In this document: positions 1,369 through 43,247 of the stretch, piece by piece | Numbering within the stretch: position 1 is the stretch's first letter | How the letters are laid out: the number at the start of each line of letters is the position of its first letter | DNA from: a virus | Lineage: Duplodnaviria; Heunggongvirae; Uroviricota; Caudoviricetes | IMG/VR virus record: IMGVR_UViG_2540341091_000003 | Location: 1 to 43,247 of that record | Direction: 5' to 3' (one strand) | Length of the DNA: 43,247 nucleotides | Made by a program: the position numbers and the translations under genes | Notes under the pieces: model-generated | Told to the model about the DNA's origin: nothing | Database searches by the model: none | What the model saw: only the letters and a program-made list of their open reading frames with translations

Positions 1369-1444
1369 GCCGATATAGCTCAGTTGGTAGAGCAGCGCAT
1401 TCGTAATGCGAAGGTCGTAGGTTCGACTCCTATTATCGGCACCA
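1369..1444 (+). tRNA. thrW: tRNA-Thr (anticodon CGU)
   Basis: 76-nt sequence GCCGATATAGCTCAGTTGGTAGAGCAGCGCATTCGTAATGCGAAGGTCGTAGGTTCGACTCCTATTATCGGCACCA with canonical D and T arms, a CGT anticodon in the anticodon loop and a 3' CCA; sits downstream of proA as thrW does in E. coli. Confidence 0.93.
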
Positions 1445-1458
1445 TTTAAATCAATAAG

Positions 1459-2622
1459 TTACACATCATTAGTACCTTCCTTATTTTTTGACTGGGACAA
1501 ATTTGGGACCGATGGGTTCAGAATCGAGTCTATTTGCCGTGCGTGTTCGGTAAGGTGATTAGGCGCGAGGTGAGCATATCGACGAACCATTTCGATAGAC
1601 TCCCAGCCACCCATTTCCTGTAACACTGACAACGGGACTCCGGCTTGAACCAGCCAACTTGCCCAGGTGTGTCTCAAGTCGTGAAATCTGAAATCATCAA
1701 TACCAGCTCGTCTCAGCGCCGCTTTCCAGGCTGTGTTTGCGTCATACCGCATCTTCCTTACTGTTGGCGCTTTCGTTCCGTCTGGTTTGGTACAGCTTTC
1801 CTTGTACACAAATACCCAACGGTGATGATTCCCGATTTGTTTTTTCAAAACGCGACATGCAGTATCATTCAGCGCAACGCCGATTGCGCGGTTTGATTTA
1901 CTCTCTTCCGGGTTTATCCATGCCACCCGGCGCTGCATATCTATTTGTTGCCATTCAAGGTTGATGATGTTCGAGCGTCTTAAACCTGTTGCCAGTGCAA
2001 ATTCAACAACAGACTTTAATGGCTCCGGACATTCATCAATCAGCCTTTGTGCTTCATGGGGCTCCAGCCAGCGGATCCGTTTATTCTTTGGTTGAGGCAC
2101 TTTAATAATTGGTGCCTTATCCAGCATTTTCCATTCACGCTCTGCGGCTCTTAGTAGGGCCTTTATAAATGAAAGATGCGTAGCCTTCGTTGCAACGGAC
2201 GCTGGTTTTGGCGTGTATTCTGGAACAGGTTTCCCTTTTTTTCTGCATGCTTCTGCCCTGAGTTTCCAGTTTTCCTCATGACGCCGGTTCGTCATTTTCT
2301 GCATTGCTGAATAAATTTTTGATTCAGTAATGTCTCTTAGTTGCATTCCTGCGAAATGTTGAAGCCAGAATCCGATCCGGCTTTTGTCATCGTCCAGTGA
2401 TTTTTTATGTGCTTTCTCTTCAAGCCACCTGACACACGCTTCCTCGAACGTTATATCAGGTATTTCACCAAGTTTGCTGACCCGCCATGCTTCAGCCTTT
2501 AGCTTGTCATGGAGTTCTGTCGCCTGCCTTTTGTCCTTTGTTCCAAGAGACTGTTTAAATCTTTTACCGTTCGGCAATGTGAAACTGGCGTACCATATTT
2601 CACCTCTGCGGAAGAGTGACAT
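1459..2622 (-). CDS. Tyrosine-type site-specific integrase
   Basis: 387-aa ORF adjacent to the tRNA; C-terminal catalytic region ...[41 protein letters not shown]... (R, H-x-x-R and Y of tyrosine recombinases). Confidence 0.93.
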
Positions 2623-12233: not shown

Positions 12234-13229
12234 GTGACCGTGAGAGCACTACTGACCCCTGAAATTGCCCCGCGTATGGGGATCGTATTGTTCAGACCTG
12301 GTTCAGAGCTGATGCCCCTGTTTATGCAGGGGCGTGTCCTGCTGGAGCCTGAGCCGGAACGTTATTCATCTTTTGCCAGTGGTGCCGTTCCGGCGGCATC
12401 ACAACCGCTGGCGGATGATCCTGTCGTTCGGGCCGTGTTCCGCAATGAGGCAGTGATCCGTCGTGCTGGTGGCGTGGAATGTCTTGAAAGCTGGTTACTT
12501 CGTGAAAAAGGCTGCCAGTGGCCTCATTCCGACTGGCACAGCGAGAACATGACAACAATGCGACACGCGCCGGGCGCAATCCGTCTGTGCTGGCACTGCG
12601 ATAACCAGCTGCGCGATCAGTTCACGGAACGGCTGGAATCAATGGCAACGGATAACTGTGCCCGCTGGGTGTTGTCTGTTGTGCGTCGGGATCTCGGTTT
12701 TGATGACAGTCACGTTGTGACAATGCCGGAACTGTGCTGGTGGCTGATTCGTAATGACCTGGCGGATGCCTTACCGGAAAGTGCAGCCCGTAAGGCACTG
12801 AGATTACCGAAGCCTGTTGTGCCGTCTGTCACCCGGGAAAGTGACCTTGTGCCTTCGGTTCCTGCCACCAGCATCATCCAGGATAAGGCGAAAAAGGTGC
12901 TGGCGCTGAAAGTGGATCCGGAGTCGCCGGAGTCTTTTATGTTACGCCCAAAACGTCGCCGCTGGGTTAATGAAAAGTACACGCGCTGGGTTAAGACACA
13001 GCCGTGTGCATGTTGTGGAAAGCCCGCTGATGATCCCCACCACCTGATAGGTTACGGTCAGGGTGGAATGGGAACAAAAGCGCATGACCTTTTTGTGTTG
13101 CCTTTGTGCAGAAAGCATCACGACGAGCTGCATGCGGATACCGTGGTATTTGAAGAAAAGTATGGCTCTCAGTTGGAGCTGATATTTCGTTTTATCGATC
13201 GTGCGCTGGCAATTGGCGTGCTGGCCTGA
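12234..13229 (+). CDS. Phage protein with C-terminal Cys/His-rich (HNH/DUF968-like) domain
   Basis: ...CACCGKPADDPHHLIGYGQGGMGTKAHDLFVLPLCRKHHDELH... metal-binding motif; GTG start. Confidence 0.5.
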   Translation: MTVRALLTPEIAPRMGIVLFRPGSELMPLFMQGRVLLEPEPERYSSFASGAVPAASQPLADDPVVRAVFRNEAVIRRAGGVECLESWLLREKGCQWPHSDWHSENMTTMRHAPGAIRLCWHCDNQLRDQFTERLESMATDNCARWVLSVVRRDLGFDDSHVVTMPELCWWLIRNDLADALPESAARKALRLPKPVVPSVTRESDLVPSVPATSIIQDKAKKVLALKVDPESPESFMLRPKRRRWVNEKYTRWVKTQPCACCGKPADDPHHLIGYGQGGMGTKAHDLFVLPLCRKHHDELHADTVVFEEKYGSQLELIFRFIDRALAIGVLA

Positions 13230-13647: not shown

Positions 13648-14109
13648 TCACAAGTGGGGGAAGATTTTTCGTAACACTAACCAACACCTTCCGAAGGTAT
13701 ATAGCGAAATTATAAGGGAGGATAAGCCTAACAGTATGAATAGGAAATCAATAGGTTTGCCCGCAACAATAACATCATCTGGTAGAAACATCGCTATCAA
13801 TGGAAATATACATGCGACGATGAGAGTTAACCCTGTTGAAAGTAATCGATTTACCAGAGTTGGTAACACGTTGTTTTGCTTAAGGGCATTAATTGCTCCT
13901 TCCTTATCGCTGTTTGCACTACTAAATATAGATATTGCAGCCAGAACAAAACCAAACAGGATGCCTGATATAGTCGAGAGCACCCCCGCTGTTGTGAGTA
14001 CGTCAGCATGCTTCATCGGTTTAAACAGTTTTGTCGCTGCATAGGTCAACAGAATCCAGAGGACGCATTTCCAGAGAAAAGTGGCTAATTCTCTCATTGT
14101 GTCCTCCAT
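13648..14109 (-). CDS. Small integral membrane protein, four predicted TM helices (likely start at internal ATG 14095-14097 preceded by GGAGGA)
   Basis: Four hydrophobic segments (LWKCVLWILLTYAATKLF; VLTTAGVLSTISGILFGFVLAAISIF; LSTGLTLIVACIFPLIAMFL; IDFLFILLGLSSLIISLYTF); 9-bp gap to the upstream gene; AT-rich. Confidence 0.7.
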   Translation of the reverse strand: MEDTMRELATFLWKCVLWILLTYAATKLFKPMKHADVLTTAGVLSTISGILFGFVLAAISIFSSANSDKEGAINALKQNNVLPTLVNRLLSTGLTLIVACIFPLIAMFLPDDVIVAGKPIDFLFILLGLSSLIISLYTFGRCWLVLRKIFPHL

Positions 14110-14118
14110 GCTTGGTTA

Positions 14119-15060
14119 TTAGTCTCTGCTAGCGAGCTCATACTGTGCAAGATAGTTCGCGTTATCAATTTTAGCAGATATCATCGCCGTTCTGATATCA
14201 GAATCGGATGGATAACCGCTTTTGACAATGATTGTCTTTGTACTGACCAATACTTGGTCAAGTAGACTTTTGGGCGTTCTATTGGATGGCTCGGTTACAT
14301 CAATTTTTTTAATTTTTAGACCTCCAGAACCTTTTGGAAAAAGTTCAAGTAGTTCCTTAATAGCATCGGTGACAGAAGTTTTTAGATAGTTAAAACCTTG
14401 TTTTTTCGGGCGAATCCGACCTCGCATATTTAATCTTAGATGCGACCCGCCCATACCAACAACCATGTCAATAATTTCATTAGCTAAAGGGTTTTTAATC
14501 TTATAATTAGCTTTGTTAAAGTTTCTTGGAGCAGCAACTATAAGATCGAAACTACGTAGGATATTTCCGTCCTCAAGCAGTTCCTTCATGCTCTCTTGTT
14601 TCCAAATGGCTTCAAAAGTCACGCTTTTTAAATCAGTTTTGTTATACAAAATGAATGCCAGATCATTTACTTTGGGCCCTATATGGTTGAGGGTCATAGC
14701 TAATAAATCCGTTTCGTAGTAATAGATAAAATATGTTCTTTCAACTACAGAATCTTTATCATTTAAAGGAATTGTTCTCTCACTACCTGTAGCATCCTCG
14801 ATGAACGGTAGTAGGCATTCCCTTCTCCACGATACGTAACCAAAGTAACATTGCAGTGTGGTATCTTTTTGAAGAATAACTAACTTTAACCCTCGATTTG
14901 GGGTGTCTGTTGTGTAAGTTATTGGAAAAGTTACAGTATCTGCTGTGGTCATTTGCTCAAAGGCTAGTTTTGCAGCAGATGTGCCATCTTTTTTGCTTCC
15001 ATTACCAGTGAAAAAACCAACTCTCACTCGCCTAGTTTTATTCTTATTTTCTGTACTCAT
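14119..15060 (-). CDS. Hypothetical soluble protein, 313 aa, no recognisable family
   Basis: Long uninterrupted ORF on the strand opposite to all flanking phage genes; low GC; basic C-terminal half; no Walker A or nuclease motif found by eye. Confidence 0.75.
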   Translation of the reverse strand: MSTENKNKTRRVRVGFFTGNGSKKDGTSAAKLAFEQMTTADTVTFPITYTTDTPNRGLKLVILQKDTTLQCYFGYVSWRRECLLPFIEDATGSERTIPLNDKDSVVERTYFIYYYETDLLAMTLNHIGPKVNDLAFILYNKTDLKSVTFEAIWKQESMKELLEDGNILRSFDLIVAAPRNFNKANYKIKNPLANEIIDMVVGMGGSHLRLNMRGRIRPKKQGFNYLKTSVTDAIKELLELFPKGSGGLKIKKIDVTEPSNRTPKSLLDQVLVSTKTIIVKSGYPSDSDIRTAMISAKIDNANYLAQYELASRD

Positions 15061-15681: not shown

Positions 15682-16734
15682 ATGAAAAATACTGTAAAAA
15701 TAAACAGTGTTGATTTAATCAACGCTGATTGCCTGCATTTTATTCAGTCCCTGCCTGATGATTCCATTGACCTGATTGTTACCGATCCGCCTTACTTCAA
15801 AGTGAAACCTAACGGTTGGGACAATCAGTGGAAAGGGGACGAAGATTACCTTAAGTGGCTGGACCACTGTCTGGCCCAGTTCTGGCGGGTGTTAAAACCT
15901 GCCGGAAGCCTTTACCTGTTCTGTGGGCATCGCCTGGCATCTGATATTGAGATCATGATGCGTGAACGTTTCAACGTGCTTAACCATATCATCTGGGCGA
16001 AGCCGTCCGGACGTTGGAATGGGTGTAATAAAGAAAGTCTGCGCGCATATTTTCCTGCCACAGAGCGCGTTCTGTTTGCTGAACATTACCAGGGGCCATA
16101 TCGCGGCAAAAGTGACGACTATGCGGCAAAAGAAAGGGAACTCAAACAGCACATAATGGCACCGCTGATATCGTATTTCAGGGATGCTCGTGCCGAACTG
16201 GGTATAACGGCAAAACAAATTGCCGAAGCCACAGGTAAGAAAAATATGGTTTCCCACTGGTTTGGTGCCAGTCAGTGGCAGTTGCCGAATGAGGCTGACT
16301 ATCGGAAGTTACAGGCACTGTTTTCCCGTATAGCGGCAGAGAAGTTTCAGGAACAACAACTGGAACAACCACACCACCAGCTGGTGGCATCTTATGATTC
16401 ACTGAATCGCAAATATTCTGAATTGCTGGATGAGTTTAAATCTCTCCGGCGCTATTTCTCCGTATCAGTCTCCGTGCCTTATACCGATGTCTGGACGCAT
16501 AAGCCCGTTCAGTTCTACCCGGGTAAACATCCGTGCGAGAAACCGGCGGATATGCTCCGGCAAATAATCAATGCCAGTAGTCGACCTGGTGATCTGGTTG
16601 CTGATTTCTTTATGGGATCCGGTTCCACAATAAAAGCAGCAATGGCGCTGGGGCGTCGGGCGTTAGGTGTTGAACTTGAGTCAGAGCGGTTTAATCAGAC
16701 GGTGAAAGAGGTAAGTGAACTGGTGGGGAAATAA
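15682..16734 (+). CDS. DNA methyltransferase, beta-class N6A/N4C (DPPY motif), orphan
   Basis: ...DLIVTDPPYFKV... (motif IV) near the N-terminus and ...DLVADFFMGSGSTIKAA... (SAM-binding motif I) near the C-terminus; no adjacent restriction endonuclease gene recognised. Confidence 0.85.
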   Translation: MKNTVKINSVDLINADCLHFIQSLPDDSIDLIVTDPPYFKVKPNGWDNQWKGDEDYLKWLDHCLAQFWRVLKPAGSLYLFCGHRLASDIEIMMRERFNVLNHIIWAKPSGRWNGCNKESLRAYFPATERVLFAEHYQGPYRGKSDDYAAKERELKQHIMAPLISYFRDARAELGITAKQIAEATGKKNMVSHWFGASQWQLPNEADYRKLQALFSRIAAEKFQEQQLEQPHHQLVASYDSLNRKYSELLDEFKSLRRYFSVSVSVPYTDVWTHKPVQFYPGKHPCEKPADMLRQIINASSRPGDLVADFFMGSGSTIKAAMALGRRALGVELESERFNQTVKEVSELVGK

Positions 16735-18706: not shown

Positions 18707-19057
18707 ATGCCCCTACGAACCCCAAAAGCCTGCCGTGTTCGCGGCTGCCGCCATACCACAACTGACCCGTCAGGCTATTGCGAAAGCCACAAAAGCGAGG
18801 GCTGGAAGCAATACAAGCCAGGACAATCCCGTCATCAGCGCGGTTATGGTTCGAAATGGGATGCTATCCGTGAACGTGTGCTGAAGCGTGACAAAGGCCT
18901 GTGTCAGTTATGTCTGCGTGCTGGTGTGGTGCGTGAGGCGAAAACCGTTGACCACATCATCCCTAAAGCGCATGGCGGCACAGATGCCGACAGTAATCTG
19001 CAGAGCCTGTGCTGGCCGTGTCATAAGGCGAAGACGGCCCGTGAACGGCTGAGGTGA
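18707..19057 (+). CDS. HNH endonuclease (terminase-associated)
   Basis: ...CQLCLRAGVVREAKTVDHIIPKAHGGTDADSNLQSLCWPCHKAKT... HNH motif; located just upstream of the small terminase. Confidence 0.85.
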   Translation: MPLRTPKACRVRGCRHTTTDPSGYCESHKSEGWKQYKPGQSRHQRGYGSKWDAIRERVLKRDKGLCQLCLRAGVVREAKTVDHIIPKAHGGTDADSNLQSLCWPCHKAKTARERLR

Positions 19058-38499: not shown

Positions 38500-39054
38500 A
38501 TGCTTATTGGCTATGTACGCGTATCAACAAATGACCAGAACACAGATCTACAACGTAATGCGCTGAACTGTGCAGGATGCGAGCTGATTTTTGAAGACAA
38601 GGTAAGCGGTACAAAGTCCGAAAGGCCGGGACTGAAAAAACTGCTCAGGACATTATCGGCAGGTGACACTCTGGTTGTCTGGAAGCTGGATCGGCTGGGA
38701 CGTAGTATGCGGCATCTGGTCATTCTGGTTGAGGAGTTGCGCGAACGTGGCGTTAATTTTCGCAGCCTGACGGATGCTATTGATACCAGCACACCGATGG
38801 GGCGTTTTTTCTTTCATGTGATGGGTGCCCTGGCTGAAATGGAACGAGAACTGATTGTTGAACGAACAAAAGCTGGACTGGAAGCTGCTCGCGCACAGGG
38901 ACGAATTGGTGGACGTCGTCCCAAACTTACACCAGAACAATGGGCGCAGGCCGGGCGATTAATTGCATCAGGCGTTCCTCGCCAGAAGGTGGCTATTATC
39001 TATGATGTTGGTGTGTCAACTTTGTATAAGAGGTTTCCAGCCAGGGTTATATAA
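38500..39054 (+). CDS. Serine DNA invertase (Pin/Gin/Hin family)
   Basis: MLIGYVRVSTNDQNTDLQRNAL... with catalytic Ser in VRVST, plus a C-terminal HTH; adjacent to the invertible tail-fibre segment. Confidence 0.92.
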   Translation: MLIGYVRVSTNDQNTDLQRNALNCAGCELIFEDKVSGTKSERPGLKKLLRTLSAGDTLVVWKLDRLGRSMRHLVILVEELRERGVNFRSLTDAIDTSTPMGRFFFHVMGALAEMERELIVERTKAGLEAARAQGRIGGRRPKLTPEQWAQAGRLIASGVPRQKVAIIYDVGVSTLYKRFPARVI

Positions 39055-39396
39055 AACCGCAGACATGTCGTATGCAGGAGGTGTCGCGGTTGGCTGGTGA
39101 ACTTTTGATAGTGCGAGTATTGAATGATTTCCAGCCGTTACTGATTTTACGCATTTTTGTATGAGAGGGTTTGCACCTCCTTCCACCGATTCTCCATGAC
39201 TTTACGCCACTGTCTCTAGAACTGCTATGTGCCAACAGCAGACATTCATAGCACACAGTTTTGTTAACAACTAGAAATAAGTTTAGGAATAGTCGCGATA
39301 TATCTATTAAAGATACAATCATTCAAATAAATGAGACATTTTCGGCATGCTGGGAAAAGTAATTAAAAATGGTGAAAGCCAATTGTTTTTTATTAA

Positions 39397-39903
39397 TCAA
39401 CTTTTAAACCATAAGTCATCTCGATAGAGTAGACTAATTTTCGTTGCATCTTTTGATGCTAGAGTCGTACACTCTCCTTTATCAAACTCATCTAGACTCA
39501 CAAATGTAAATTCGTCACCATTTTTTTCTTTCGGAAACACCATAAAGACTACTTCGAAAGTACAATCACTATACACATTTTTTAAGAATTGCTGAAGTGC
39601 TCTATACTTTCCTATTTCACAATCAGTAAGTGTAAAGGAGGTACACCCATCTGTTGAGTGATACTTCGCATCTAAAAGAATATAAGAGGATTCGTCAGCG
39701 TCAATAATGAAATCGGGGCGTTTCCCCCCATATGATTTCAAGTTTGCAGATAAGGTATTTATTCCTTGCTCAACATGTTCAAATTTCCACTTGGATTTTT
39801 CCAGCCATCTACTAGCATATTTCTCACCATCTTGACCAGCCGTTATAGAGTATTGTTTTCTTAATGCGCTGCACATTTCGTCTAAATTTAACATAAATTC
39901 CAT
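39397..39903 (-). CDS. Small AT-rich protein with a PD-(D/E)xK-like nuclease motif (start 39903 or 39894)
   Basis: ...GGKRPDFIIDADESSYILLDAKYH... fits the D...(D/E)xK pattern of restriction-endonuclease-fold nucleases; AAGGA RBS; low GC. Confidence 0.55.
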   Translation of the reverse strand: MEFMLNLDEMCSALRKQYSITAGQDGEKYASRWLEKSKWKFEHVEQGINTLSANLKSYGGKRPDFIIDADESSYILLDAKYHSTDGCTSFTLTDCEIGKYRALQQFLKNVYSDCTFEVVFMVFPKEKNGDEFTFVSLDEFDKGECTTLASKDATKISLLYRDDLWFKS

Positions 39904-40149: not shown

Positions 40150-40386
40150 TCAAAGAGTTTTCGTAGCTTAGGCATTTCGATGCTGGCAACGGGTCAGTGT
40201 AACGCTTACTATATCGGTCCACTTTAGTCTTAAGGGTTCAATATGGCGTTGCACCTATTGTCCGCTGACCAAGAATCTTCGGGTGATTCAACTTCTGTTG
40301 GGTCATAAGAAACTGGAAAGCACATTCCGTTATCTGGGCATTGAAGTCGATGATGCGTTAGAGATCTCTGAATCGATTGAAGTCTA
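40150..40386 (+). pseudogene. Remnant of a tyrosine recombinase gene (C-terminal catalytic region only, with frame disruptions)
   Basis: The frame ending at TAA 40384-40386 reads ...LTKNLRVIQLLLGHKKLESTFRYLGIEVDDALEISESIEV, i.e. the LGH...RY region carrying the catalytic Tyr; the upstream reading frame is broken. Confidence 0.5.
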
Positions 40387-40493
40387 AGGTTGTCAGGGCT
40401 GCAACAGCAGCCCTGTGCCAGGAGCAGACGTTAACGACCAAGCATTGGCGGCAATTGAGCTCAGCGCAATTGCCGTTCAAGTGCAACTCCGTT

Positions 40494-43247
40494 CTATTTG
40501 ATTGCTGCATTGATTCGTTTATATCTTTGGGTAAAGGCCTCTTTGCCACCTTCCATCACTCGGCATATCTCATCGCGTATGGAAGGTTCTTGAAGACCCC
40601 CTTGCGCCACAATTCTGGTTTGACCAGACCGAATATCAAGGGCAATGACGTTTTCCGCGTCACCATTCACGACGATGTTAGCGTTGTGCGTGACTACTAA
40701 AACCTGCCGTTTTTGTTTGATCTCACGCAATTGCGTCACGATAAGATCATAGATTAAGTGGTTATCAAGATCATCCTCAGGCTGATCAAGTATAAGAGGC
40801 TCATTGCCATATGAAAGGATAAATGCAAGGAGAGCCGCCGTTTTTTGCCCCGGAGATCCTTGCTCTACGGGTTTGAAACTCTCGCCGTTCTTGAGGCTAT
40901 ATCTGATATCCAGAGAATCGCCTGGAAACCAGCACTGAATTCGATCTATCTGTTCCGGAGTTAGCCCCTGAATGAGGGATACAAAACGTCGATCTTTGCA
41001 GGATTCCACCGCCATAGTATCGTTTTCATGGATTGCAAGTAGCGATGATTTTATTTTCTCAATTTTATCATCCATAGTATTGGATTGGTCTTGCGTTAAA
41101 TAAGCCAGCAAGCCCTCATCCCCGTCAACAACTCCAATGTCGCGGTCAAATCCGCCACCACTGCGGCCGATCAGGTTACGGAATTCTTCCTCAACCGTAA
41201 TCTTGTTTCCAAACGGAATGACATTGATCTGTACATATGAATTGCCGACGAGAGTATCCTTGAGAAAGTCCTCACGAAGTTTGGTTATCAATGCTCGATG
41301 CTCATGGAGTTTGACCAAGTATTCTTCCGCGCTCTTCTGATGCTGCGCAAGAGTTTCTCTCTTTTTGTCGAATCCCTTGAGCTTATCTTCGAAATCTTGT
41401 CGCTGCTTAACCAGAACACCATATGCAGATGGATCACCTGCGTCTGCTGCGCTGAGTTGACCGAGGAGGGCGTTGTATTCATGGCTCGCCGCTGTAATTC
41501 TTTTCGATATTCCCAAGTCTGATCGAGTTTGATTCCATGAGTTCTTCACATCATCAATCCGCTGCGCGATCGAGTTCATCTCTGTCTGAAGCTTCTCAAA
41601 CGTCGCACGGATGTCCTTGATGGTATCGAAGAGTTCTTTGTCATCCGCATTCCCAATGTCGAAATATTGTAAATCCAATTCTGCTGGCAGTAGGCTTCCA
41701 GAAATATCTCGGACCTGTTCGGCGGAATCCTCCCAAGTCGTTACCCAGGAGTCCATAGCCTTACTCTGGTTCTGTCTGAGTTGGTAAGCCTTAAGGACAT
41801 CCGCGTGGCCCGCCTTTTCAAAAACATCGAGTTTGCGTTTGACGTCTTCAAGCTGACCTTTGGTTACCGATTCTTCCTGAAGCCCAGCCTGAACTTCACG
41901 CTCTTGGGCGCGAAGCGAGAGATATTTGGAAACCAGTTCATCCCACTTAAGCTGCCAATCACGATGATTGACCTCCGGGGCATCATCGACAACCTGCAAG
42001 AGTGCTTGGGGATGCTTTGCCAATTCGAATATCTGTTTCTGGCTGTAAATCCTGACAGGAAATCGTTGTGCTATGTCTCCCTCGGAATCACACCAGACTC
42101 CGGGAGCGGTCTCTTCCTCGATGCTGTATATGTCGTCGGTATTAGACCAGGTGATTCGGAAACGGCCACCGTCTTTTCGAAAGCCTACAGTTATTTTCGT
42201 GGAATCTTTTAACAGCCCTTCATCTTGGCGGTCTTTCGAAGTTTGACTGTATTTGGTAAATTCCTTTTCAAGGCTCTTGGGGATTTCTCCCTTTCGTTTA
42301 AGAGCAATCCGCAGGAATTCCAACGAAGTCGATTTCCCAGTGCCTCGTCCACCAATGATAGTGTTGAGCCAGGGGTTCAGTTGACAAGTTAAAGATTGCC
42401 CTCGTCCTAAGTACTTCGCATCATCAACCACGATACTTTCGATGGCAAGTTGTCCATGGATATTTGGGTCACCAGTGAAGTTGTCCGACCGCTTCAGTGA
42501 AAGAGCACCATCAACGAGCGCCAGCCGTAATCCGTCATAAGATGGCTCCGACATTTTTACCCAAGTGAAATGGCTACCCGGGTAGCGTTGATTTCCGGTA
42601 CCGGACGGATGATGGGAATCGGTTCCAAGAATCTCTGCCCAATTCAAATTCTTGCCAATATAGAGCTGCGGTTTTGCTTTAGCAAGGTCCGTTACCTCCA
42701 TAGCAAAAACACATTTGTTGTCAAGCACCTGCTCTAGTGTGTTGCCCGTACAGACCGTAAAAAGTCCGCTAGCCTGATCTACATGAGCAGGTATTGCAAG
42801 TCCTCCTGACCTAGCAATTTCGTCGATCACCTCAACTGCTGAGCATTCAGAGCAGCCGTCGCTCTTTCCTTTGGTGCCGCGATACCTGACCGCACCAAGC
42901 AGTGAGTCGATATCAGAGGTTGTCTTGTCTTCGCCGAAAATGGCCAGAATATGGATATTCCCCTGAACAGTAAGCTCAACACCTGGGAATAAGTAGAGTG
43001 GTCGATAATCTTCATGACTCTCAGATGCCAGTTCCTTGAGTGCCTGCTTGAGCGGATCAATCCAAGCGCCTGAATTATGGTCCGTGACAGCGACACAATC
43101 GATGCCTTGTCGCATGTAGTTGAGCAGCCAATCTTTATGAGTGATCTGCATATACTGGGCCTGATTAGGGCCTTTTCCATAATCGTCCGATGCCGGAGTG
43201 TGATTATGGAAGTCGAATTTCCACCACCGAGAACCAATCCAGTTCAT
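40494..43247 (-). CDS. PHP-domain phosphoesterase fused to an SMC/RecN-like ABC ATPase (917 aa); architecture resembles Ppl-type single-gene antiphage proteins
   Basis: N-terminal PHP motifs (WWKFDFHNHTPAS; VAVTDHN; GVELTV...IHILAIF; AIPAHVD; LGTDSHHP), Walker A GGRGTGKST (~aa 299-307), long coiled-coil-like insert, signature-like QGSPGQKTAALLAFIL, Walker B LILDQPEDDLD and VVTHN H-loop. The window ends exactly at its start codon. Confidence 0.8.
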   Translation of the reverse strand: MNWIGSRWWKFDFHNHTPASDDYGKGPNQAQYMQITHKDWLLNYMRQGIDCVAVTDHNSGAWIDPLKQALKELASESHEDYRPLYLFPGVELTVQGNIHILAIFGEDKTTSDIDSLLGAVRYRGTKGKSDGCSECSAVEVIDEIARSGGLAIPAHVDQASGLFTVCTGNTLEQVLDNKCVFAMEVTDLAKAKPQLYIGKNLNWAEILGTDSHHPSGTGNQRYPGSHFTWVKMSEPSYDGLRLALVDGALSLKRSDNFTGDPNIHGQLAIESIVVDDAKYLGRGQSLTCQLNPWLNTIIGGRGTGKSTSLEFLRIALKRKGEIPKSLEKEFTKYSQTSKDRQDEGLLKDSTKITVGFRKDGGRFRITWSNTDDIYSIEEETAPGVWCDSEGDIAQRFPVRIYSQKQIFELAKHPQALLQVVDDAPEVNHRDWQLKWDELVSKYLSLRAQEREVQAGLQEESVTKGQLEDVKRKLDVFEKAGHADVLKAYQLRQNQSKAMDSWVTTWEDSAEQVRDISGSLLPAELDLQYFDIGNADDKELFDTIKDIRATFEKLQTEMNSIAQRIDDVKNSWNQTRSDLGISKRITAASHEYNALLGQLSAADAGDPSAYGVLVKQRQDFEDKLKGFDKKRETLAQHQKSAEEYLVKLHEHRALITKLREDFLKDTLVGNSYVQINVIPFGNKITVEEEFRNLIGRSGGGFDRDIGVVDGDEGLLAYLTQDQSNTMDDKIEKIKSSLLAIHENDTMAVESCKDRRFVSLIQGLTPEQIDRIQCWFPGDSLDIRYSLKNGESFKPVEQGSPGQKTAALLAFILSYGNEPLILDQPEDDLDNHLIYDLIVTQLREIKQKRQVLVVTHNANIVVNGDAENVIALDIRSGQTRIVAQGGLQEPSIRDEICRVMEGGKEAFTQRYKRINAAIK

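What the first reader, a model, noticed from the sequence alone, without database searches (positions are those of the whole stretch)
40494..43247. 917-aa PHP-nuclease/SMC-like ABC ATPase fusion at the right end of the prophage
Seen in sequence: one ORF combines a complete N-terminal PHP-type phosphoesterase motif set with a Rad50/RecN/SMC-style ABC ATPase (Walker A at ~aa 299-307, ~500-aa helical insert, signature-like motif, Walker B and H-loop at the C-terminus). Established knowledge: this is an SbcCD-like logic with PHP replacing the Mre11 phosphoesterase, and a single-gene PHP + ATPase antiphage system (Ppl) was reported among systems found in defence-island screens in 2020. Inference: this is a Ppl-like or related DNA-sensing nuclease-ATPase carried as prophage cargo just past the tail-fibre invertase, the position where related phages carry other cargo such as serotype-conversion or restriction genes.
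Basis: partly seen in the sequence, partly recalled or inferred. Interest (0 to 1): 0.7.

Follow-up and report, generated by a model that had tools for sequence, protein, structure and literature searches.

The report
Ppl-like antiphage nuclease-ATPase in prophage
The last gene of this E. coli prophage encodes a one-protein nuclease fused to an ATP-binding module, a distant relative of the known antiphage protein Ppl, so it is a real but fairly ordinary piece of defence cargo.

Summary
The ORF is real. It lies on the minus strand at 40494-43247, is 917 aa long and is under purifying selection. It combines an N-terminal PHP phosphoesterase with a Rad50/SMC-type ABC head that is split by a coiled coil.

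It matches the PADLOC Ppl model end to end (E 2e-157). It passes NCBIfam's TrlF-family cutoff. It is only 30% identical to Ppl proper and falls below NCBIfam's Ppl equivalog cutoff. All PHP metal ligands and ABC motifs are invariant across 130 diverse relatives.

The window is E. coli APEC O78: proA, thrW, then an SfV/SfII-like myovirus prophage. The gene lies inside the att-bounded element, because attR is 363 bp beyond the window end. Relatives carry gtr/oac genes or a DUF4365 protein in the same slot, and another carries McrA just past its tail-fibre gene.

The gene travels as a 2.95-kb single-gene cassette that recurs in plasmids, other prophages and defence islands. Homologues 83-85% identical sit inside type I R-M and BREX-like operons in other phyla.

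This is a new, untested subfamily member of a known kind, and interest is modest.

The parts
40494..43247 (-). 917-aa ORF (plus stop codon) encoding a Ppl/TrlF-family PHP nuclease fused to an ABC ATPase. RefSeq WP_015364433.1, annotated 'TrlF family AAA-like ATPase'.
42468..43235 (-). PHP phosphoesterase domain, about aa 5-260. Invariant ligands are D12, H14, H16, D56, H57, E91, H99, H155, D210 and H212.
41973..42449 (-). ABC head N-lobe, about aa 267-425. Contains Walker A 299-GGRGTGKST-307 and Q-loop Q403.
41253..41966 (-). Antiparallel coiled-coil arm, aa 428-665, with its apex near aa 519-533. It contains no cysteine, so there is no CxxC zinc hook.
40935..41234 (-). Roughly 100-aa strand-plus-helix domain (aa 672-771) between the coiled coil and the C-lobe.
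40500..40916 (-). ABC head C-lobe, aa 778-916. Contains signature S798-P-G-Q801, Walker B LILD821 followed by invariant Q822-P-E824, D-loop DDLD828 and H-loop H854.
40414..40493 (-). 80-bp 3' trailer that always travels with the ORF and contains a GGCAATTG...CAATTGCC hairpin. This is the left end of the 2.95-kb cassette. The cassette's 112-bp 5' leader lies just outside the window, at about +1 to +113 beyond base 43247.
40283..40387 (+). Remnant of the C-terminus of a tyrosine recombinase ('...IQLLLGHKKLESTFRYLGIEV...'), with degenerate upstream frames. It marks the left edge of the exchangeable slot.
39397..39894 (-). 165-aa cargo ORF in AT-rich DNA (GC 0.40) with a PD-(D/E)xK-like motif (RPDF...LLDAKY). 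Matches phrog_28481, function unknown.
38500..39054 (+). pinE-type serine DNA invertase of the tail-fibre switch.
1399..1462 (+). attL: a 64-bp exact direct repeat that overlaps the 3' end of tRNA-Thr (thrW, 1369-1444). Its only other copy, attR, lies 363-426 bp beyond the window end.
1459..2622 (-). Prophage tyrosine integrase next to attL.

Best explanation
The gene encodes a stand-alone, single-protein antiphage nuclease of the Ppl/TrlF family. An SfV/SfII-like temperate myovirus integrated at thrW carries it as a moron.

Shown here: the protein has a complete PHP metal-dependent phosphoesterase active site. That domain is fused to an SMC/Rad50-type ABC nucleotide-binding head whose two lobes are joined by a coiled-coil arm. 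The gene moves between replicons as a 2.95-kb one-gene cassette with its own leader and trailer. In other hosts it sits in defence loci.

Inferred by homology to E. coli Ppl, as summarised in PMC12904381 and in the title of Xu et al. 2026: the PHP domain acts as a 3'-to-5' exonuclease on single-stranded or 3'-overhang DNA. At normal cellular NTP levels, bound nucleotide keeps the enzyme off. When an infecting phage drains the NTP pool and creates free 3'-OH DNA ends (for T7, through its gp5.3 HNH endonuclease), the nuclease is released and phage DNA replication is aborted.

My own inference: the position after the Walker B aspartate normally holds the catalytic glutamate. In this family it is an invariant glutamine (D821-Q822). 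That would favour long-lived nucleotide binding, a sensor or switch, over rapid hydrolysis.
For: Family assignment:
- PADLOC Ppl gives E 2.3e-157 over the full length.
- NCBIfam TrlF_fam_ATP gives 651 bits against a cutoff of 350.
- BLASTP to annotated Ppl gives 30% identity over residues 4-912, E 9e-125.

Active sites are intact and invariant in 130 relatives.

Selection: dN/dS is 0.11-0.23 against five homologues.

Stand-alone mobility: the same cassette ends (L001 6162 to about 9107) occur in five unrelated contexts.

Defence neighbourhoods of proteins at least 83% identical:
- inside a type I R-M operon;
- inside BREX-like operons;
- directly after BREX-1 brxL;
- in a Citrobacter island beside a TerB protein, a BrxC/BrxD-like ATPase, a DEAD helicase and a 1232-aa reverse transcriptase;
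- next to a type II R-M on a plasmid;
- at prophage ends or in moron positions in Proteus and Klebsiella.

Slot and distribution: the slot is a variable cargo site. Only 17 of 5426 complete E. coli genomes carry the gene.

Literature on Ppl phenotype and mechanism.
Against: - No experiment exists for this subfamily.
- It shares only 30% identity with the characterised Ppl and fails NCBIfam's strict Ppl equivalog cutoff (631 of 1000 bits).
- The mechanistic details come from secondary descriptions, because the primary papers (Gao 2020, Xu 2026) were not readable here.
- No convincing sigma-70 promoter was found in the conserved leader by the simple scan.
- Some near-identical homologues sit beside TrlG-like AlbA_2/HATPase_c_4 genes or inside multi-gene systems, so independence from partners is not proven.
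Confidence: 0.75

Rival explanations
1. The protein is one subunit of a multi-gene system: either a TrlR-TrlF-TrlG type operon, or an accessory nuclease of BREX or type I R-M. The solitary prophage copy would then be inert, or would depend on partners encoded elsewhere.
For: - PGAP names it TrlF family.
- TrlF was defined in a three-gene Photorhabdus operon with TrlG.
- Y. ruckeri TrlF is followed by an AlbA_2/HATPase_c_4 gene.
- The 83%-identical Sphaerochaeta protein is followed by a protein with the same domains, inside a BREX-like operon.
- In Dethiosulfovibrio the gene overlaps hsdM and hsdS at both ends.
Against: - There is no TrlG or TrlR homologue next to it in this window.
- The identical one-gene cassette recurs in five contexts with different neighbours.
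- It aligns end to end with single-gene Ppl (E 9e-125). Against the TrlG-linked Y. ruckeri TrlF it aligns only through the terminal domains.
- The solitary copies remain under purifying selection.
Confidence: 0.1
2. It is a DNA-repair or recombination enzyme analogous to SbcCD, serving the host or the prophage's own replication rather than immunity.
For: The head is Rad50/SMC/RecN-like with a coiled coil. PHROGs gives a weak hit to an SbcC-like family. PHP domains act as proofreading and repair nucleases in PolX enzymes (stated).
Against: - Distribution is sporadic (0.3% of E. coli genomes).
- It always sits on mobile elements or in defence loci.
- It lies in the variable cargo slot, oriented opposite to the late operon.
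- It lacks a zinc hook.
- Transfer across phyla at 81-83% nucleotide identity is typical of defence cargo.
Confidence: 0.06
3. It is a decaying or silent passenger gene with no current function in this strain.
For: One E. coli copy is interrupted by IS3 and another is annotated as split. No clear promoter was found. The flanking DNA holds an integrase remnant.
Against: The reading frame is intact. 14 of 17 E. coli copies are at least 99% identical. dN/dS is 0.11-0.23 and every catalytic residue is preserved. A conserved 112-bp leader with an AGGA ribosome-binding site travels with the gene.
Confidence: 0.04

Closest known systems
Ppl (PplA), the single-gene antiphage system of E. coli (Gao et al. 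2020; mechanism Xu et al., Mol Cell 2026). Example here: WP_000233113.1 on an IncF plasmid next to pifC.
   Same: One polypeptide with an N-terminal PHP domain and a C-terminal SMC-like ABC head with a coiled coil. The two proteins are collinear end to end (residues 4-912 against 2-889). All PHP ligands, Walker A, the signature motif, the unusual D-Q-P-E Walker B and the H-loop are shared. Both are stand-alone genes on mobile elements.
   Different: Only 30% identical. It scores 631 bits against the 1000-bit equivalog cutoff. All 150 best 50%-identity cluster representatives are at least 34% identical to the query, compared with 30% for Ppl. It is carried by a prophage rather than an F-type plasmid. 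Its phage spectrum and trigger are untested.
TrlF of the Photorhabdus/Yersinia ruckeri TRL operon (trlR-trlF-trlG), NCBIfam NF045780
   Same: It passes the family model (651 bits against a cutoff of 350). It has the same PHP plus ABC architecture.
   Different: It is 23% identical to Y. ruckeri TrlF, and only the terminal domains align. That TrlF lacks the second His of the D-x-H motif ('GCDAKQ') and is paired with a TrlG-like AlbA_2/HATPase_c_4 protein. No such partner is present here. In Photorhabdus the TRL phenotype, temperature restriction, mapped to trlG and not to trlF.
SbcCD / Mre11-Rad50
   Same: A Rad50-type ABC head with a coiled-coil insertion is coupled to a metal-dependent phosphoesterase that acts on DNA ends.
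   Different: The nuclease has the PHP fold, not the Mre11 calcineurin-like fold. It is fused into the same chain rather than being a separate subunit. The coiled coil is short (about 90-130 residues per strand) and has no CxxC zinc hook. The Walker B catalytic Glu is replaced by Gln.
Lamassu LmuB, Wadjet JetC, Gabija GajA, PARIS AriA and Septu PtuA (defence ABC/SMC-like ATPases)
   Same: All are defence-associated ABC-type ATPases. There is structural similarity to the JetC, PtuA, GajA and OLD heads.
   Different: Only weak partial HMM matches are found (LmuB 8e-8, AriA 3e-7, PtuA 4e-6, GajA 2e-5). The cognate partner genes are absent, and the nuclease domain is of a different type.

Membership tests
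Ppl (PplA) single-gene defence system | Single polypeptide with an N-terminal PHP phosphoesterase and a C-terminal ATPase | tested here: met
Ppl (PplA) single-gene defence system | Full-length match to the detection model used by defence finders (PADLOC PDLC02208) | tested here: met
   E 2.3e-157, 524 bits, protein 4-912, model 3-892 of 894
Ppl (PplA) single-gene defence system | NCBIfam equivalog NF042955 'anti-phage protein Ppl', cutoff 1000 bits | tested here: not met
   631.3 bits. It is 30% identical to a protein that passes the cutoff.
Ppl (PplA) single-gene defence system | Conserved PHP metal ligands and nucleotide-binding motifs | tested here: met
   Invariant in 130 sequences
Ppl (PplA) single-gene defence system | Functions without a partner gene | tested here: inconclusive
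   The one-gene cassette recurs with different neighbours, but some close homologues are embedded in multi-gene operons. Function was not assayed.
Ppl (PplA) single-gene defence system | Anti-phage phenotype, and NTP-inhibited 3'-5' exonuclease activity on 3'-OH ends | not testable with these tools
   Known for Ppl only through secondary descriptions
TrlF family (NCBIfam NF045780) | Score above the curated cutoff of 350 bits | tested here: met
   651.4 bits, model 2-943 of 944. This is the RefSeq annotation.
TRL operon (trlR-trlF-trlG) | Adjacent TrlG (AlbA_2 + HATPase_c_4) and small TrlR regulator genes | tested here: not met
   The neighbours are an integrase remnant, a 165-aa PD-(D/E)xK-like ORF and attR. 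TrlG domains were defined.
SbcCD / Mre11-Rad50 | Rad50-type ABC head with a coiled coil | tested here: met
SbcCD / Mre11-Rad50 | Mre11-type (calcineurin-like) nuclease subunit and a CxxC zinc hook at the coiled-coil apex | tested here: not met
   The nuclease has a PHP fold. There is no Cys in aa 428-665. No Mre11/SbcD gene is nearby.
Lamassu (LmuB + LmuA) | Strong LmuB match with an adjacent LmuA effector | tested here: not met
   LmuB E 8.3e-8, partial only. No LmuA-like neighbour.

The most novel reading that the evidence does not exclude
This subfamily might not be merely nested next to other defences. It might act as a plug-in nuclease effector for methylation-based systems that lack one. 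Proteins 83-85% identical to this one sit inside operons. In two phyla the gene lies between the PglX-type methylase and the SNF2 helicase of BREX-like loci, starting 3 bp after the methylase gene ends. In a type I R-M locus it lies between hsdM and hsdS, with overlapping stop and start codons. On this reading the prophage cassette would be the free-living form of such a module. Alternatively or additionally, it could sense the 3' cohesive-end overhangs made by HNH-terminase (HK97-type) packaging phages, a class that includes its own carrier prophage.
Probability: 0.1. Interest if true: 0.65.

Novelty: new member of a known kind. Interest (0 to 1): 0.3.

Why it matters
If the prediction holds, this prophage protects avian-pathogenic E. 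coli lysogens against other phages with a single 917-aa protein, which is relevant to phage therapy and phage typing of APEC.

The subfamily is a good comparator for the recently described Ppl mechanism. It has the same motifs at only 30% identity, including a natural Glu-to-Gln change at the ABC catalytic position.

Near-identical copies in Pseudomonadota, Synergistota and Spirochaetota, some embedded in BREX and type I R-M operons, make it a convenient case for studying how defence modules spread and combine.

None of this changes current understanding. It extends a known class.

Tried and rejected
- A first AlphaFold run used 24 close homologues (83-100% identity). It gave an unusable model (pLDDT 46). 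It was replaced by a 130-sequence alignment built from the representative search (pLDDT 92.6).
- A sequence search of the PDB found no Ppl or TrlF structure, only distant ABC heads. Foldseek confirmed this.
- The promoter scan found nothing in the conserved leader. Manual inspection gave only weak candidates (TTGGAC, 17 nt, TAATCT), so no promoter is claimed.
- No direct or inverted repeats flank the cassette, so no transposition mechanism can be proposed.
- The primary papers (Gao 2020; Xu 2026) are not in the library. Their content is cited only through papers that quote them.
- I considered that the gene might lie outside the prophage, in an older thrW island such as CP4-6. This was rejected because the only second copy of the 64-bp att repeat lies to the right of the gene, and SfII attP-arm homology (98%) resumes right after the cassette.
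- PADLOC, Pfam and NCBIfam gave nothing useful for the 165-aa neighbour or for the 13648-15060 gene pair.
Full report
**1. The observation**

The region 40494-43247 holds one uninterrupted 917-codon ORF on the minus strand. Its ATG is the last three bases of the window. The translation starts MNWIGSRWWKFDFHNHTPASDDYG.

- PHP HxH at H14/H16
- Walker A 299-GGRGTGKST-307
- a signature-like S798-P-G-Q
- Walker B LILD821
- H-loop H854

I aligned the protein with 129 relatives of 33-96% identity, taken from an all-against-library HMMER search and from the word-indexed search. Across these, the following are invariant: D12, H14, H16, D56, H57, E91, H99, H155, D210, H212 (the full PHP ligand set), G299, G302, K305, S306, Q403, S798, D821, Q822, P823, E824 and H854. 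Against five homologues, dN/dS is 0.11-0.23. The ORF is therefore a real, selected gene.

**2. Architecture**

An AlphaFold2 model built on the 130-sequence alignment is confident (mean pLDDT 92.6, pTM 0.80). A first attempt with only close homologues failed (pLDDT 46). The model shows:

| Residues | Element |
|---|---|
| about 5-260 | PHP barrel |
| about 267-425 | ABC N-lobe |
| 428-665 | two long antiparallel helical stretches, apex near 519-533 |
| 672-771 | mixed domain of about 100 residues |
| 778-916 | ABC C-lobe |

Foldseek ranks MukB, Smc, JetC, condensin, Rad50 and RecN heads first. A profile of six family members hits both Rad50 lobes by sequence (E 2e-8).

The coiled coil contains no cysteine, so there is no Rad50-type zinc hook.

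One family-wide oddity stands out. The residue after the Walker B aspartate is normally the catalytic glutamate. Here it is an invariant glutamine, in the context D821-Q822-P-E824.

**3. Family**

- PADLOC's Ppl model matches end to end (E 2.3e-157). LmuB, AriA, GajA and PtuA match only weakly.
- NCBIfam places the protein above the TrlF-family cutoff (651 bits against 350).
- It falls below the strict 'anti-phage protein Ppl' equivalog cutoff (631 bits against 1000).
- A PGAP-annotated Ppl on an IncF plasmid, next to pifC, is 30% identical over residues 4-912 (E 9e-125).
- A further E. coli plasmid clade is 40% identical.
- The Y. ruckeri TrlF is paired with an AlbA_2/HATPase_c_4 'TrlG-like' gene. 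It is 23% identical and aligns only through the terminal domains.
- The family is large: 7771 50%-identity clusters at E<=1e-3 and 1299 at E<=1e-30.
- No member has a solved structure in the PDB copy.

**4. Literature**

- 'TrlF' comes from the Photorhabdus temperature-restriction locus trlR-trlF-trlG. There the phenotype mapped to trlG and not to trlF (PMC7554251).
- Ppl is listed among the 2020 defence-island systems.
- Ppl was still called uncharacterised in 2024, when Bas63 gp130 was found to counter it and it was shown to impair T7 (PMC11482910).
- A 2026 review summarises the mechanism (PMC12904381). Ppl is a 3'-5' ssDNA exonuclease. NTPs bound to both the PHP and NTPase domains inhibit it. 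NTP depletion, together with 3'-OH ends made by phage homing endonucleases, activates it.
- The primary source is Xu et al., Mol Cell 2026, 86:180. [quoted passage not shown]'.
- I could not read Gao 2020 or Xu 2026 directly.

**5. Genomic setting**

The window is E. coli APEC O78, NC_020163.1. From left to right it contains:
- proA (1-1254)
- tRNA-Thr thrW (1369-1444)
- a tyrosine integrase (1459-2622, minus strand)
- lambdoid-type early genes
- an HK97-type head and Mu-type tail module, 97% identical to Shigella phages SfII, SfI, SfIV and SfV
- an invertible tail-fibre segment with pinE (38500-39054)
- AT-rich cargo (GC 0.40, against 0.51 for the prophage)

The cargo consists of a 165-aa ORF, a 34-codon integrase C-terminal remnant, and the Ppl-like gene.

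A 64-bp exact repeat of the thrW 3' end occurs only twice: at 1399-1462, and at 363-426 bp beyond the window end. Similarity to the SfII attP arm (98%) resumes 238 bp after the gene's start codon. To the right come a truncated LysR gene and paoD. The gene therefore lies inside the att-bounded prophage, at its right end.

**6. The slot is a variable cargo site**

- In SfII, an oac-like acyltransferase, an IS element and gtrII-gtrB-gtrA lie between the tail genes and attP.
- Phage vB_EcoM-689R6 has McrA plus an invertase just past its tail-fibre gene.
- E. coli GF3-3 has the same prophage type at thrW and the same integrase remnant, followed by a DUF4365 protein instead of the Ppl-like gene.

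**7. The mobile unit**

The same 2.95-kb segment occurs in several unrelated settings. It runs from L001 6162 to about 9107 and comprises an 80-bp trailer, the ORF and a 112-bp leader.

| Context | Nucleotide identity |
|---|---|
| Plasmid, next to a type II R-M | 98% |
| Another plasmid | 92% |
| Klebsiella lambdoid prophage at icd | 97% |
| Citrobacter island with a TerB protein, a BrxC/BrxD-like ATPase, a DEAD helicase and a 1232-aa reverse transcriptase | 93% |
| Proteus lambdoid prophage, just past gpJ | 83% |

No repeats flank the cassette.

Proteins 83-85% identical occur in Dethiosulfovibrio, Sphaerochaeta and Acidithiobacillus. There the gene is embedded in operons:
- hsdM-hsdM-[gene]-hsdS-hsdR, with overlapping stop and start codons
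- between a PglX-type methylase and an SNF2 helicase of BREX-like loci, starting 3 bp after the methylase gene ends
- directly after BREX-1 brxL in a metagenomic contig

The gene's GC content stays at 0.43-0.50 while host flanks range from 0.35 to 0.57. Nucleotide identity across phyla is 81-83%. This indicates recent, wide horizontal transfer.

In E. coli the gene is rare. It occurs in 17 of 5426 complete genomes. One copy is IS3-disrupted and one is split.

**8. Interpretation**

The evidence supports a stand-alone Ppl-family antiphage nuclease-NTPase carried as a prophage moron (confidence about 0.75).

The mechanism is inferred from Ppl and not shown here. It would be a PHP 3'-5' exonuclease held off by bound NTP and released by NTP depletion plus free 3'-OH ends. 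The invariant Gln at the catalytic position fits a nucleotide-sensing switch, but this is my inference.

The rivals are less well supported:
- It could be a subunit of a TrlFG-type or BREX/R-M-coupled system (about 0.1). Embedded homologues favour this reading. The recurring solitary cassette argues against it.
- It could be an SbcCD-like repair enzyme (about 0.06). The sporadic, mobile-element-bound distribution argues against it.
- It could be a silent passenger (about 0.04). Purifying selection and intact motifs argue against it.

**9. Novelty and score**

RefSeq already annotates the protein as TrlF family. A defence finder using the PADLOC Ppl model would be expected to call it Ppl, given the end-to-end match. 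The mechanism of the class was published in 2026. This is a new, experimentally untested subfamily member of a known kind, in a textbook location for prophage cargo.

Points of modest interest are the cross-phylum spread, the embedding in BREX and R-M operons, and the natural E-to-Q Walker B. Interest is 0.3.

Noticed in passing
window 39397-39894 (-): A 165-aa ORF in AT-rich cargo between pinE and the Ppl-like gene. It carries a PD-(D/E)xK-like motif (RPDF...LLDAKY) and has a weak RmuC hit (E 0.01). It belongs to phrog_28481, of unknown function, and has no PADLOC or NCBIfam match. It may be a second small nuclease-type cargo gene.
   Followed up: partly
window 40283-40387 (+); also L021 7455-7559: A 34-codon C-terminal remnant of a tyrosine recombinase sits at the left edge of the exchangeable slot. 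The same remnant is present in E. coli GF3-3, where a DUF4365 protein replaces the Ppl-like cassette. It may mark a recombination anchor for cargo exchange.
   Followed up: partly
window 39048-39151: A roughly 100-bp non-coding segment just after pinE is 84-92% identical to the region just downstream of the tail-fibre genes in many lambdoid phages (HK97, mEp460, phi80, Stx phages). In HK633 it is annotated as attP. It looks like a mosaic boundary element.
   Followed up: partly
window 40782-40784 (codon Q822); alignments A3 and A4: The whole Ppl/TrlF family has an invariant Gln where ABC ATPases carry the catalytic Glu after the Walker B Asp (D-Q-P-E). This is the natural equivalent of the E-to-Q mutants used to trap ATP-bound ABC dimers.
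   Followed up: partly
L010 8001-10772; L011 8001-10763; L020 4142-6904; L019 8001-10757: Proteins 83-85% identical to the E. coli one are embedded inside a type I R-M operon (Dethiosulfovibrio) and BREX-like operons (Sphaerochaeta, Acidithiobacillus), or lie directly after BREX-1 brxL. In the first three the neighbouring genes overlap or are 3-15 bp away; after brxL the gap is about 77 bp. In Sphaerochaeta the next gene is TrlG-like (AlbA_2 + HATPase_c_4 + Fic-like C).
   Followed up: partly
window 18707-19057 (+) and 12234-13229 (+): The prophage encodes two HNH endonucleases, one directly upstream of the small terminase as in HK97-type packaging. Ppl is reported to be triggered by 3'-OH ends made by a phage HNH endonuclease. 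This raises the question of how the prophage avoids its own cargo on induction.
   Followed up: no
window 13648-15060 (-): Two adjacent minus-strand ORFs (153 aa and 313 aa; phrog_8552 and phrog_7651, unknown function) lie between an HNH gene and a DNA methyltransferase gene (15682-16734), against the direction of the surrounding genes. They have no PADLOC or convincing Pfam match. This may be another moron.
   Followed up: partly
E. coli genomes NZ_AP038987.1 and NZ_CP058596.1: In an O103:H2 strain the gene is interrupted by an IS3-family element. In UPEC_U013 it is annotated as two pieces (TrlF family plus a PHP-domain protein). Both are occasional inactivations of the cassette.
   Followed up: no
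L001 9069-9085 (about 75-91 bp beyond the window end): A perfect palindrome, GTTGGA-AAG-TCCAAC, lies in the conserved 112-bp leader that travels with the gene. It could be an operator. No regulator gene is nearby.
   Followed up: no
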